A stretch of DNA of 64,000 bases from Ophelia neglecta. Taxonomy: Eukaryota. The stretch is taken from positions 63,922,001 to 63,986,000 of the forward strand of contig OZ260662.1 in assembly GCA_965285935.1 (NCBI GenBank). Direction: 5' to 3'. Below, piece after piece: positions 24,001-64,000 of this stretch. The position numbers are program-made. Position 1 is the stretch's first letter, and each line of letters opens with the position of its first letter.

Positions 24001-27000
24001 CGCACTATATTTAACAGGATTTATTGGATGAATGGTTTAGAAGCACATTCATATTGCCAGAAAATAATCACTTAATGATTTCTTTTCTGAAATTAACTTA
24101 CATTGCTGCCCTAAGCTTGGATTCTTACACCAAAAAATACTTTGGCTAGATGGCCCAGTTGATGGCACCCTGATGAACACACAACATTGAATGTTAAATG
24201 TAAAATATTGTTTTCCACTGAAATGTCACACATATTTTTAAACCCTTTATTTTCTTGAGCCCTTTACTTCATTCACGAGCAGGGTCAAAATCACGTAATT
24301 AAAGGGCCCAAGAAAATAAAGGGCCTGCAAGAAAATCTTGTAGGAAGCTCTAAAATGCAAATTACAGTGAAACCTGTGTTTGTGGATACCTGGGTAGTGA
24401 GGTCACTTGTCCACTAAGGTCACCAAATAATAGTCTCCTCCCATTCTATTCCTGTATTGAGTAACCTCCATATTAAGGTCACCTGTATAATGTGGGCATT
24501 TAATTCCAGTCCCTTGACTGACCTGATTAGACGGGTTTCACTGTACATGTAAAAGGCCAGTGTAATCCTGTAAGTTGTGTTTTACAACCCCAAATATTCA
24601 GGGCCATGCAATAATTATAAGGGTTTTACAATACTTAAAATGCTTTTCTTTTTTAAGGTTCTTGTATCAAGCCAGCCAGTTGATTAGTCCATAGGAGTAA
24701 TGTGCCATCTGGCTCTCTGTAAGAACAGAAATAAAATGTCCCAATCCCTAATTTCTCTCAGTAATAATATTGATATCTCTGGAACATTGTTTACCATCAA
24801 CACTTGGCCGAGAGGTTAGGGTGTCAACCTCGCAAGTGGTAGATTGAGGTTCAAATCCCAATCCTGTCAAATCCTGTCAAAGTAAAACTAGGTACTGATA
24901 GCTCCCCTGCCAGGCGCCCGGTATTTGCGGGCAGTATCAGGACTGGTCAACCCGGTGTCAGTATAATGTGACTGGGTGGGGTTCCCTGTCTGGTATCTAA
25001 GGCAGGTACTCCAGTGATGCAGCACTCTAAGGAGCACATTGAGCCCATTGCCACAAGTGAGCACCATGGGGATATGACCATACAAGTGTTTAAAGCCATG
25101 TCAAACCCCAACCAACCTACCTACCAACCAACCCAGGGCAATTATCAATGCCTGATTTGTGGTGCTGATTTATAACCCTTACAAATAAACAAACAAACTG
25201 GATTATAATTAACGCTTTATTCGACCTTCATATAACTTATATATTGTATTTTAATATATACTTCTTTGTAATTTAATACTGTAGTAGACAAAGGGAAAAA
25301 AAGTTCATCAAGGATTAACTTGGCCCTTTTCGAAAAATACACTTTGTGTACTTAATCAGGGACTAGAGACATGCATGCAAATGTATTGTATTGAAGTGTT
25401 TCAATTTTGCAACAATTGTTTTATTATGATATTAGCAAATTTAAACCCAGGCAAACATTTTTTACCCTTACATTTGGCAAAGTCCAAAATCAAACTGGCA
25501 GGAAGGCCTTTCCATGTTGTAAACATTTGTATAACAATAAATACCCTAGATACTTCTGCAAACAACAAATGATCAGAAAATTCTCCATCAGAAAATTCTC
25601 CAATCTAAATAATACATCAACAACAAAACATATAACCCTTGGCTAATAGGGCCTACTCTAATACAAATATAATTTTGTATATCTTCAAAGTAAAAATAAC
25701 CAACATTATTAATTTATTATATCTGAATCATGTAATTGATAGGCTGGTATATTAACTTTCAAATGCACACATAATTTTGGTCTTAAGCTTTAAAAAGTAG
25801 AGCCACTAGTGTACTTCGGCCTTCTAAAATCTGGCTTAAAAGAGTAGCAGACAGTGTAAAAACATATCACCCCCAAACCCAAAGGTAACTAACAAGTCTC
25901 TTTTTCATTGATTGGGGGTGGACATTGGTCAGCAAATTTTGCATGCTGATCCTTTAGCTGAATTACTCTTAATTTTTCTGCTTACCAGGTACTTGTAAAA
26001 AGATAGTTTTTTTTCTTCTTTCATTTTGCATTGTTATATCCATATTGTACGGATCCTAAACAGTGACCTCAGAATAGGCTACAAGATTTCTCTAGAATTT
26101 TAATTTGATTTGGACTAAATCTGTACATATGTGCATGAACATTTGCCAACCAAATCTGAGCATACAATCATTACTTTTCTTTAGGCGAATAGATTGGTCT
26201 ATCAAAATCTAAAATATTTTATATTCTCCTAAAATATAATATATCCTATAAACATTGGGTCATCAAAGATAGCATATTAAAAAAAACTTTATGACAATGC
26301 TGACAATATGTAGGATGTTGAGTAAAATCAGGTGATAGCTTGGTCTATCAAAATCTATAATATTTCCTATTCTCATAAAATATAATAGATCCTATACAAA
26401 TTGGGTCATTAAAGATAGTATATTTAAAATACAAAATGACAATGATGAAAATGAAATATGTAGGATGTTGATGAAAATCACACACACAAATACTTTCTCA
26501 CACACAAAATTATAATGTACATGTATATTCGACACCTCCTGACCTTCCCTTAAGAAGCAGGAAGATTAATATTTGAACAATAAAAGTACTTAGTATAATA
26601 AGTTATCTTCAACAAGATGAATATCAAATGTCTTAGACCCGGACAACACTAGATCGGTACTGCTGCTTGGAGAATCTGCAGAATCTGATGAGATTACACT
26701 TTCAAATGCAGGCTTTACATCACCAGTATTGTCATTTTGTTTCGAATTAAATATGGATTCATTCGAGTTCATGTTATGATTGGCAAGACGAGATGGTCGT
26801 GCCATTTCTTTCAACTTATATTGATCCGTGTCATTCAGTGACTGAAAGTAAGTTTGTCGAGTGTGTGTAATTTTGCTCTTGACAAAACTGTTTTTTACAT
26901 CTCCAATCATAACAGAGTTGTTGGTACATGTCCGCACAGTTTCTCCATTTGACTTTTCCTTATCTATCTTGAGTTTATTAGAACGACGTACGCAGTGAAA

Positions 27001-63000: not shown

Positions 63001-64000
63001 GAGCAAAGTAGGGAAGATCGCCAACGACGTAATAATTAAATACCTCAAACCCAATGCGAAGTTTCATGGCACGAGACACGACTTTTTCATTGGCTGATGT
63101 GACTACTTTGCCTTCTATGTTGTCCAGAAAGTAATCCTTAAACGTGTCAAAGGGATTGGCCAGACTTGCAGACCATGAATCCCTAAATATGATCTGACTG
63201 TAAGTCAGCGACCCAACTTTGGTATTTCCCTCCTTTAAAAAGTTTTTATCGGCAAGGAAATGTAATATTTTGAACACCACATGGTGCTGTTGGTAGCACT
63301 TGGGCGGCAATCCTTGACACTGGCCAATAAGATAACAAGATGACAGGGACCTGTTGAAATAAAACGGTGAACAGGTAACCAAAAGGTTGTTCATACTGTC
63401 AATGTCTGACTGAGTGATTTGGTCGCAAGTTTTGTTCTGAAGGCCTGCCACGTAGTATGGCACGGAGTGTAGTCTGCAGTCTTCTGTGAAGCTATCAAAA
63501 TATCCCAAGATATGAATCCTTTCGAAATCACACATCGCTTTGAGCATTTCTACTGTCATCAAACTACTATGGCCGTCGAACGTCTCTAATACAAAGGAGA
63601 AGATATTGTCATCTGGTAAAAAATAAAACAAGGTTGGATGTAATTAATTACTGGTATGGTTTGATATTGAAGATTAATGAAGGCTTCGATTTATTAGAAC
63701 CGATAACATGTTGGATCCTAAAAACCCACCATCAATATATTCGGCAAGACAATCCAAGTGTAGATCTGAGCCGGGAGATCGCTTCCGCCTGGACGAGCTG
63801 ACAGTTGGCTGGTTAGTCAGTTTACCATTAGATATGTCTTCTTGAACGAGGCCAGCTGCTGCCAAGCGTCCCTGGATTGTCGTGCCTTTAGTGGCAAAAC
63901 CCTAAAATATAGTAATATTTCATATTAAAAAATGAAAATGCTCACCGATATGCAACAAGCCAATTCCTGCATGGCTAATTAAGGCATTACAACGAATAAT

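What the first reader, a model, noticed from the sequence alone, without database searches (positions are those of the whole stretch)
26590..63901. Tandem array of at least three intact, compact Dispatched-like RND transporters
Seen: three same-strand genes with the same exon layout where visible, almost no N-terminal cytoplasmic region (B starts MGW directly before TM1), intact TM4 DD and TM10 D. Known: canonical Dispatched is a low-copy exporter of cholesterol-modified Hedgehog powered through that acidic triad. Inference: an expanding, diverged clade with a working ion-coupling core probably exports other lipidated cargo (Hedgehog-related/Hint-domain proteins, sterols or lipophilic metabolites), a candidate undescribed secretion system. 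The array may continue beyond the window.
Basis: partly seen in the sequence, partly recalled or inferred. Interest (0 to 1): 0.7.

Follow-up and report, generated by a model that had tools for sequence, protein, structure and literature searches.

The report
Three tandem Dispatched-like transporter genes
The window holds three neighbouring genes for Dispatched-type membrane transporters that look functional but belong to a little-studied extra branch of the family seen so far in annelid worms, not to the classic Hedgehog exporter; their cargo is unknown.

Summary
Three minus-strand Dispatched-family genes lie about 17 kb apart: A (26590-31004), B (43355-52523) and C (60581-63901, whose 5' exons lie off the window). 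A and B share a four-exon layout: 8 coding bases giving M-G-W, a 124-nt TM1 exon, a small exon with a furin-type site, and one roughly 3-kb exon. All nine Na+-coordinating side chains described for mouse DISP1 are kept in A, B and C.

The best sequence and fold matches are solved Dispatched structures, far ahead of NPC1 and PTCH1. Trees and an AU test put the three genes outside the canonical Disp/DISP1 group. They sit in a separate clade whose organism-named members are all annelids.

B and C are real, recent tandem duplicates: 94% nucleotide identity in the gene, 78-86% in the flanks, dN/dS 0.66. C carries two derived changes in TM4.

The "compact" N-terminus is ordinary for invertebrate Dispatched. 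Extra Dispatched-like paralogues in annelids are already in print, without a known function. One paper found no extra Hog/Hint genes in two annelids that have five or six such proteins. Verdict: new members of a known kind, of modest interest.

The parts
30997..31004 (-). Gene A, first coding exon: 8 coding bases (ATG GGA TG) followed by a GT donor; with the first base of the next exon it gives M-G-W
   Evidence: A at -3 and G at +4 around the ATG; inferred, no transcript data
30587..30710 (-). Gene A, 124-nt exon encoding the pre-TM1 segment and TM1
   Evidence: AG/GT borders; same length and phase as in gene B
29737..29938 (-). Gene A, 202-nt exon: start of ectodomain 1 (GFETRGT) and a furin-type RNRR site
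26590..29456 (-). Gene A, last exon (2867 nt including the stop): rest of ECD1, TM2-12, ECD2 and the C-terminal tail; modelled protein 1066 aa
52516..52523 (-). Gene B, first coding exon: 8 coding bases (ATG GGT TG) plus a GT donor, giving M-G-W
48881..49004 (-). Gene B, 124-nt TM1 exon
   Evidence: tblastn match to residues 5-45 of Owenia P0014, E 5.8e-6
46440..46611 (-). Gene B, 172-nt exon: start of ECD1 and a furin-type RRKR site
43355..46338 (-). Gene B, last exon (2984 nt including the stop); modelled protein 1095 aa; the tail carries a PPxY motif
63730..63901 (-). Gene C, 172-nt exon homologous to B's third exon, with an RRKR site; the upstream exons lie beyond the window end
60581..63612 (-). 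Gene C, last exon (3032 nt including the stop); 91% aa identical to B; derived G-to-A and D-to-G changes in TM4
39196..46647 (.). Tandem duplication unit, copy 1 (B with its 3' flank), collinear with 57483-63938
   Evidence: self-blastn: 78-86% identity in the flank, 94.0% over 3334 columns in the gene
57483..63938 (.). Tandem duplication unit, copy 2 (C with its 3' flank)

Best explanation
A, B and C are genuine paralogous genes of the Dispatched family of eukaryotic RND/sterol-sensing-domain transporters. They belong to a non-canonical branch, separate from the Disp/DISP1 orthologues that release Hedgehog, and every member of that branch that carries an organism name is an annelid. A and B split long ago. 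B and C arose by a recent tandem duplication of about 17 kb.

Inferred mechanism: like DISP1, each protein is a 12-TM pump. Na+ flows through three sites built by the TM4 DD, the TM10 D and six Thr/Ser side chains, and this drives movements of a split, furin-cleaved ectodomain. Those movements pull a lipid anchor out of the outer membrane leaflet and release a lipid-modified extracellular protein.

Family, fold, residues and clade are shown. The Na+ coupling, the cleavage and the protein nature of the cargo are inferred. The cargo is unknown: it could be Hedgehog in particular tissues or something else.
For: Family:
- phmmer against PDB gives DISP1 at E 3e-154 (B) and 6e-153 (A), fly Disp at 1e-118 and tardigrade Disp at about 1e-101 to 1e-106. 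NPC1 and PTCH1 reach only 1e-7 to 1e-12.
- The AF2 model of B's large exon has pLDDT 81.9 and pTM 0.78.
- In Foldseek, ranks 1-9 are all Dispatched, with TM-score 0.59-0.71 on the query. NPC1 and PTCH1 score 0.43-0.50.

Core residues:
- The counterparts of mouse D571, D572, D1049, T610, S611, T613, T614, T1087 and T1088 are all present in A, B and C. The residue list comes from passages of preprint 10.1101/2020.09.05.284026.
- Nearly invariant ectodomain cysteines are kept in B.
- A furin-type R-x-K/R-R site lies 38-48 residues after the GFxxxGT motif in A, B and C. This is the same place as in vertebrate DISP1 and Owenia P0014.

Clade:
- FastTree of 58 rows gives a 28-row clade with support 100.
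- IQ-TREE with LG+C20 on 41 rows gives a 22-row clade with SH-aLRT 100.
- FastTree of 199 rows gives a 74-row clade with support 92. It holds the 3 window genes, 6 of 6 annelid-named proteins and 65 proteins without an organism name. None of the 42 other organism-named proteins falls inside it.
- Holding the window genes with canonical spiralian Disp costs 314 lnL, p-AU 7.6e-50.

Real genes under constraint:
- Open frames of 961-1020 codons remain intact.
- A has a 58%-identical counterpart, P0005, that groups with it rather than with B and C.
- For B against C, the non-synonymous share is 0.69 against 0.78 expected under neutrality (p 0.015). Omega is 0.40 in the TM domain (p 0.014).
Against: - There is no expression evidence for any of the three genes.
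- B against C gives dN/dS 0.66 overall. The ectodomains (0.64) and the tail (0.90) are not distinguishable from neutral.
- C has two derived substitutions at TM4 columns that are 91% and 81% conserved, and its 5' exons are unseen.
- The first exon is inferred from 8 bases.
- The AU group was chosen after the tree had been seen.
- No DISP2 or DISP3 sequence was retrieved by any search, so the relation to those branches was not tested.
- The deep order of the main clades is unresolved (open forks).
- Nothing here bears directly on the cargo.
Confidence: 0.72

Rival explanations
1. One of the copies is simply this animal's DISP1/Disp orthologue, the ordinary Hedgehog exporter, and the others are spare copies.
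For: All functional motifs of DISP1 are present. The best PDB match is DISP1. The rest of the genome could not be searched for another Disp gene.
Against: Owenia has both a canonical Disp (P0124) and a member of this clade (P0014). The window genes group with the latter. Forcing them together with canonical spiralian Disp is rejected, p-AU 7.6e-50. Identity to canonical mollusc, nemertean and insect Disp is only 29-32%, against 39-58% to members of their own clade.
Confidence: 0.04
2. B and C are two haplotypes of one locus wrongly laid in tandem by the assembler, so there are only two genes.
For: B and C are 94% identical over 3.3 kb and collinear over about 7 kb. Marine invertebrates can be highly heterozygous (recalled, no call).
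Against: Flank identity falls to 78-86%, with several indels and a roughly 750-bp stretch after B's stop that is absent after C's. There are 92 amino-acid differences across 999 aligned positions plus in-frame indels. The window has no N or gap at a junction. Such divergence is well above usual allelic levels (inference).
Confidence: 0.07
3. C, or B, is a decaying, unexpressed duplicate, so the 'array' is functionally one or two genes.
For: dN/dS is 0.66. C has G-to-A and D-to-G changes next to the TM4 aspartates. Ectodomain and tail substitutions are near neutral.
Against: Both frames stay open for more than 1000 codons, and every exonic indel is in frame. Derived changes are spread about evenly: 10 in B, 14 in C, 21 unresolved. 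The TM domain shows constraint, omega 0.40, p 0.014. All Na+ ligands are kept in both copies.
Confidence: 0.2
4. The proteins move a free lipid or sterol, as proposed for PTCH1, NPC1 and DISP3, rather than releasing a lipid-anchored protein.
For: They share the RND/SSD core with sterol transporters. No candidate protein cargo was found. Two annelids with 5-6 Disp-family proteins showed only one Hh and no other Hog gene.
Against: The ectodomain fold matches Dispatched, not PTCH1 or NPC1. The small exon with the furin-type site is retained. The preprint read ties this linker and the split ectodomain to handling the protein part of Hedgehog.
Confidence: 0.25

Closest known systems
DISP1 / Drosophila Dispatched (canonical Hedgehog release protein)
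   Same: Twelve TM helices with a sterol-sensing domain and two Dispatched-type ectodomains. The TM4 DD, the TM10 D and all six Thr/Ser Na+ ligands are present. There is a furin-type site in the TM1-TM2 loop. Sequence identity is 30-35% and TM-score 0.64-0.71.
   Different: It is a separate clade. The residues before the furin site are not the acidic stretch seen in vertebrate DISP1 (read). There is no long N-terminal cytoplasmic region, but invertebrate canonical Disp lacks it too. Hedgehog release was not tested.
Non-canonical Dispatched/Che-14 family proteins of annelids (PMC9695228; 'dispatched genes expanded in vestimentiferans', PMC8789280)
   Same: The window genes group with uncharacterised Owenia, Capitella (three proteins), Paralvinella and Dimorphilus proteins. 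This fits the published statement that annelids carry several Disp-family proteins outside the Disp1/2 clade.
   Different: The published tree is in a supplementary figure that I could not open. That this clade is their 'sister to Disp1/2' clade rather than their 'sister to Disp3' clade is therefore my inference from the strong DISP1 similarity. My literature searches listed no paper describing tandem arrangement, gene structure or residue conservation for these genes.
C. elegans CHE-14 (Dispatched-like, apical secretion in epithelia; recalled, no call)
   Same: A Dispatched-family member working in an animal context not tied to a classic Hedgehog ligand.
   Different: No CHE-14 sequence was retrieved, so the relationship was not tested.
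DISP3/PTCHD2, PTCH1, NPC1
   Same: The RND/SSD transmembrane core and the acidic intramembrane residues.
   Different: PTCH1 and NPC1 match only over the TM domain (E 1e-7 to 1e-12, TM-score 0.43-0.50). DISP3 was not available for comparison.

Membership tests
Dispatched family (eukaryotic RND/SSD transporters of the Disp/DISP1/CHE-14 type) | Twelve TM helices with a sterol-sensing domain in TM2-6 | tested here: met
   Pfam Sterol-sensing, Patched and MMPL domains in A, B and C. The AF2 model of B's large exon shows 11 TM helices. TM1 is encoded by the separate 124-nt exon. The exons were not joined.
Dispatched family (eukaryotic RND/SSD transporters of the Disp/DISP1/CHE-14 type) | Two large ectodomains with the Dispatched fold rather than the PTCH1 or NPC1 fold | tested here: met
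   Foldseek ranks 1-9 are all Dispatched structures, TMq 0.59-0.71. NPC1 and PTCH1 score 0.43-0.50. Tested for B only.
Dispatched family (eukaryotic RND/SSD transporters of the Disp/DISP1/CHE-14 type) | Intramembrane acidic triad (TM4 DD, TM10 D) plus the Thr/Ser Na+ ligands | tested here: met
   All nine positions are conserved in A, B and C.
Dispatched family (eukaryotic RND/SSD transporters of the Disp/DISP1/CHE-14 type) | Furin cleavage site in the TM1-TM2 loop | tested here: met
   RNRR in A and RRKR in B and C, at the position of the vertebrate site. Only the motif is shown. Cleavage itself cannot be tested with these tools.
Dispatched family (eukaryotic RND/SSD transporters of the Disp/DISP1/CHE-14 type) | Release of lipid-modified Hedgehog from producing cells | not testable with these tools
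   Needs a cell assay.
Canonical Disp/DISP1/DISP2 orthogroup | Placement inside the clade that holds fly Disp, vertebrate DISP1 and canonical spiralian Disp | tested here: not met
   Separate clades. The AU test rejects union with canonical spiralian Disp (delta lnL 314, p 7.6e-50). DISP2 was not in the data.
Annelid non-canonical Dispatched-like clade | Monophyly with the Owenia P0014, Capitella P0039/P0068/P0114, Paralvinella P0123 and Dimorphilus P0186 proteins | tested here: met
   Support is 100 (28 rows), SH-aLRT 100 (22 rows) and 92 (74 of 199 rows).
DISP3/PTCHD2 branch | Grouping with DISP3 rather than DISP1 | not tested
   No DISP3 sequence came back.

The most novel reading that the evidence does not exclude
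The annelid-type Dispatched-like clade, still duplicating here in tandem, is a family of Na+-driven, furin-activated release proteins for lipid-anchored extracellular proteins other than Hedgehog. On this reading the fast-changing ectodomains (omega 0.64-0.77 between B and C) track different cargoes. That would be a lineage-specific secretion route parallel to the Hedgehog-Dispatched pair.
Probability: 0.25. Interest if true: 0.65.

Novelty: new member of a known kind. Interest (0 to 1): 0.3.

Why it matters
Dispatched is usually treated as a one-gene, one-cargo exporter. A conserved, still-duplicating side branch with a complete Na+-coupling core and the furin linker shows that the machinery has been reused in at least one animal phylum. 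If the cargo differs from Hedgehog, it would point to unknown lipid-anchored signals. If the cargo is Hedgehog, it would show tissue-specific partition of its release. As it stands, the locus is a well-annotated example of a paralogue group already noted in annelid papers, and it gives exact gene models and residues for experiments.

Tried and rejected
- Hint/Hog genes nearby: I scanned 10 open frames outside the three genes against Pfam, out of the 131 frames of at least 60 aa listed for 26-64 kb plus those listed upstream. The hits were SLC12, an endonuclease/phosphatase domain and an endonuclease-reverse transcriptase domain, with no Hint or Hog. The reverse transcriptase was found.
- More Dispatched copies or fragments in the window: tblastn with 11 homologues found only the three loci and B's TM1 exon.
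- Structured RNAs and tRNAs: none.
No Hedgehog of this species is at hand, and a stand-in from another host is a poor test.
- DISP2, DISP3, PTCH, PTR and NPC1 in one tree: not done.
- The joined, spliced protein was never built, searched or folded. Every search, alignment, tree and fold used single exons. For A, B and C these were the large last exon, with the small exons handled separately. TM1 and the start of ECD1 are therefore absent from the fold and the trees.
- Genome contigs holds only bacteria and archaea and was not used. The species' own genome (copy number, canonical Disp, continuation of the array beyond 64000) stayed unchecked.
- Supplementary Figure S2 of PMC9695228, the tree of the extra annelid clades, could not be opened.
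- The species was not determined. The neighbouring SLC12A9 gene is closest to Capitella at 58%, and the clade membership points to an annelid or close relative. The window is not human.
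Full report
WHAT IS THERE

On the minus strand the window has three very long stop-free frames: 26590-29475, 43355-46390 and 60581-63643. I call them A, B and C. Each carries the Sterol-sensing, Patched-SSD and MMPL Pfam domains.

B and C are 91% identical in protein (907 of 999 aligned positions). A is 43% identical to B (401 of 933).

Against all PDB chains, the best matches of A and B are:
- mouse and human DISP1, E 6e-153 and 3e-154;
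- Drosophila Dispatched, about 1e-118;
- tardigrade Disp, about 1e-101 to 1e-106.

NPC1 and PTCH1 reach only 1e-7 to 1e-12, and only over the transmembrane core.

The window has no N. It is not human. The neighbouring gene is an SLC12A9 orthologue, closest to Capitella (58%), then to a chiton, Owenia and Lingula.

GENE MODELS

Reading the upstream DNA and locating the borders gives the same four-part coding layout for A and B, with AG/GT at every border.

| Exon | Gene A | Gene B | Content |
|---|---|---|---|
| 1 | 31004-30997 | 52523-52516 | only 8 coding bases, ATGGGNTG |
| 2 | 30710-30587 (124 nt) | 49004-48881 (124 nt) | pre-TM1 and TM1 |
| 3 | 29938-29737 (202 nt) | 46611-46440 (172 nt) | start of ectodomain 1 |
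| 4 | 29456-26590 | 46338-43355 | everything else |

The reading phases agree. The sums give 1066 codons for A and 1095 for B.

C shows the 172-nt exon (63901-63730) and the large exon (63612-60581). Its first two coding exons must lie beyond base 64000.

The 9-base motif alone is not rare: 4 matches against 2.4 expected, and 27 of 100 shuffles reached 4. The first exon therefore rests on position, donor site, phase and homology. There is no transcript evidence.

I did not build, search or fold the joined spliced proteins. Everything below used single exons.

IS 'COMPACT' SPECIAL?

No. Gene models of canonical Dispatched from Owenia, Lineus, Pecten, Ostrea, Bulinus, Daphnia and flies also start two to five residues before the same Y-x-R/K-hydrophobic segment, and they are 1075-1236 aa long. 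The long N-terminus is a vertebrate feature.

FUNCTIONAL RESIDUES

Passages of the DISP1 structure preprint (10.1101/2020.09.05.284026) name three things:
- the three aspartates, D571, D572 and D1049;
- six Thr/Ser ligands of three Na+ sites, T610, S611, T613, T614, T1087 and T1088;
- the essential furin site, RERR 276-279, in the TM1-TM2 loop.

In an alignment of 199 family members, all nine side chains are present in A, B and C.

C alone has two derived changes beside the TM4 aspartates. One is G to A at a column that is G in 91% of 196 sequences. The other is D to G at a column that is D in 81% of them.

The small third exon carries RNRR (A) or RRKR (B and C) 38-48 residues after the GFxxxGT motif. 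Vertebrate DISP1 has RE(K)R and Owenia P0014 has RKKR at this position. In all, 30 of 60 sequences with the anchor motif have such a site within 130 residues.

FOLD

An AlphaFold2 model of B's large exon, made with a 60-sequence alignment, has mean pLDDT 81.9 and pTM 0.78. The tail from residue 866 is disordered.

In Foldseek against the PDB, ranks 1-9 are all Dispatched structures, with TM-score 0.59-0.71 on the query. Then comes a gap to NPC1, PTCH1 and NPC1L1 at 0.43-0.50.

WHICH BRANCH OF THE FAMILY

The protein search with B found no close relative. The best hit was 46% identical, and that same protein, P0005, is 58% identical to A. Canonical Disp of molluscs, annelids, insects and corals is 29-32% identical. 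An Owenia protein, P0014, is 39% identical.

All three trees agree:
- FastTree, 58 rows: a 28-row clade with support 100 holds A, B and C together with Owenia P0014, three Capitella proteins, Paralvinella, Dimorphilus and unnamed proteins. Canonical protostome and chordate Disp form other clades.
- IQ-TREE, LG+C20, 41 rows: a 22-row clade with SH-aLRT 100, and a canonical protostome clade with 99.
- FastTree, all 199 retrieved proteins: a 74-row clade with support 92. It contains the 3 window genes, 6 organism-named proteins (all annelid) and 65 proteins without an organism name. None of the 42 other organism-named proteins is inside it.

Within the clade, (A, P0005) is sister to (B, C) with support 98-99.

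Forcing A, B, C and P0005 into one group with canonical spiralian Disp lowers the log-likelihood by 314, p-AU 7.6e-50. The group was defined after I had seen the tree.

The deep order of the main clades is unresolved. DISP2, DISP3 and CHE-14 were not in the data.

IS IT NEW?

Partly. Passages of PMC9695228 state that Platynereis and Pygospio have five and six Dispatched/Che-14 family proteins. Only one in each species falls in the Disp/Disp1/Disp2 clade. The other nine form two clades, one sister to that clade and one sister to Disp3.

A passage of PMC8789280 states that dispatched genes are expanded in vestimentiferans.

My literature searches listed no paper that describes a function, gene structure or tandem arrangement for these extra genes. 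The supplementary tree of PMC9695228 could not be opened, so matching my clade to theirs is an inference.

DUPLICATION HISTORY AND CONSTRAINT

Self-comparison shows B and C collinear over about 7 kb. Identity is 94.0% over 3334 columns in the gene, but 78-86% in the 3' flank, with indels. That is a tandem duplication unit rather than two alleles. The higher identity of the gene body may reflect constraint or gene conversion (inference).

For B against C:
- dS is 0.074, dN is 0.049 and omega is 0.66 over 1003 codons.
- By region, omega is 0.40 for the TM domain, 0.64 for the ectodomains and 0.90 for the tail.
- The non-synonymous share is below neutral overall (p 0.015) and in the TM domain (p 0.014). 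It is not below neutral in the ectodomains or the tail.
- Changes polarised with A and P0005 are spread over both copies: 10 in B, 14 in C, 21 unresolved.

A against B is saturated at synonymous sites.

Constraint since the B/C duplication is therefore real but weak. C is the more suspect copy.

HOW IT MOST LIKELY WORKS

Shown: a Dispatched fold, a complete Na+-site set, a furin-type site and membership of a conserved paralogue clade.

Inferred: a Na+-driven cycle as in DISP1. The cleaved, split ectodomain grasps a lipid-anchored extracellular protein and extracts its lipid from the membrane. Keeping the furin linker exon favours a protein cargo over a free sterol, because the preprint ties this linker to handling the protein moiety.

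Which protein is open. No Lophohog or other Hog/Hint genes were found in the two annelid transcriptomes that have 5-6 Disp-family proteins. The same paper notes Lophohog in Capitella, and transcriptomes can miss genes.

VERDICT

These are new members of a paralogue group that is known but uncharacterised. Interest is modest, and it would rise if a non-Hedgehog cargo were found.

Noticed in passing
window 2027-4495 (-), possibly extending to about 12979 or 20649: Exons of an SLC12A9-type cation-chloride cotransporter lie downstream of gene A on the same strand. The 393-aa frame at 2027-3208 hits Pfam SLC12 and is 58% identical to the Capitella SLC12A9-like protein. Frames at 12635-12979 and 20251-20649 look like N-terminal SLC12 exons by eye, but gave no Pfam hit.
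   Followed up: partly
window 34587-39139 (-): A non-LTR retrotransposon remnant lies between A and B. It has a reverse-transcriptase frame (RVT_1, E 3e-37) and endonuclease fragments. It also contains a 1503-bp segment repeated in tandem at 99.9% identity (36001-37503 = 37637-39139), which is either a very recent duplication or an assembly artefact.
   Followed up: partly
window 16520-17038 and 17932-18450: A 519-bp direct repeat at 99.6% identity.
   Followed up: no
window 32776-33506 vs 56099-57479: Segments upstream of gene A's start resemble segments between B and C (71-81% identity). This could be a dispersed repeat or a shared upstream element. An inverted copy lies at 56488-56654 / 56971-57137.
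   Followed up: no
window 43355-43900 and 60581-61100 (-), C-terminal tails of B and C: The disordered tails of B and C carry a PPxY motif (PPPY in B, PPLY in C) that is absent from A's tail. From memory, such motifs recruit NEDD4-type ubiquitin ligases in PTCH1. Not tested.
   Followed up: no
window 52524-52550 (-): A short upstream open frame (ATG followed by five codons and a stop) lies just before B's modelled start codon.
   Followed up: no
window 42588-43345: About 750 bp directly after B's stop codon have no counterpart after C's stop. This is an insertion in B's 3' region or a deletion in C's.
   Followed up: no
window 50071-50434: A 183-bp unit repeated in tandem at 89% identity lies inside B's first intron.
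   Followed up: no
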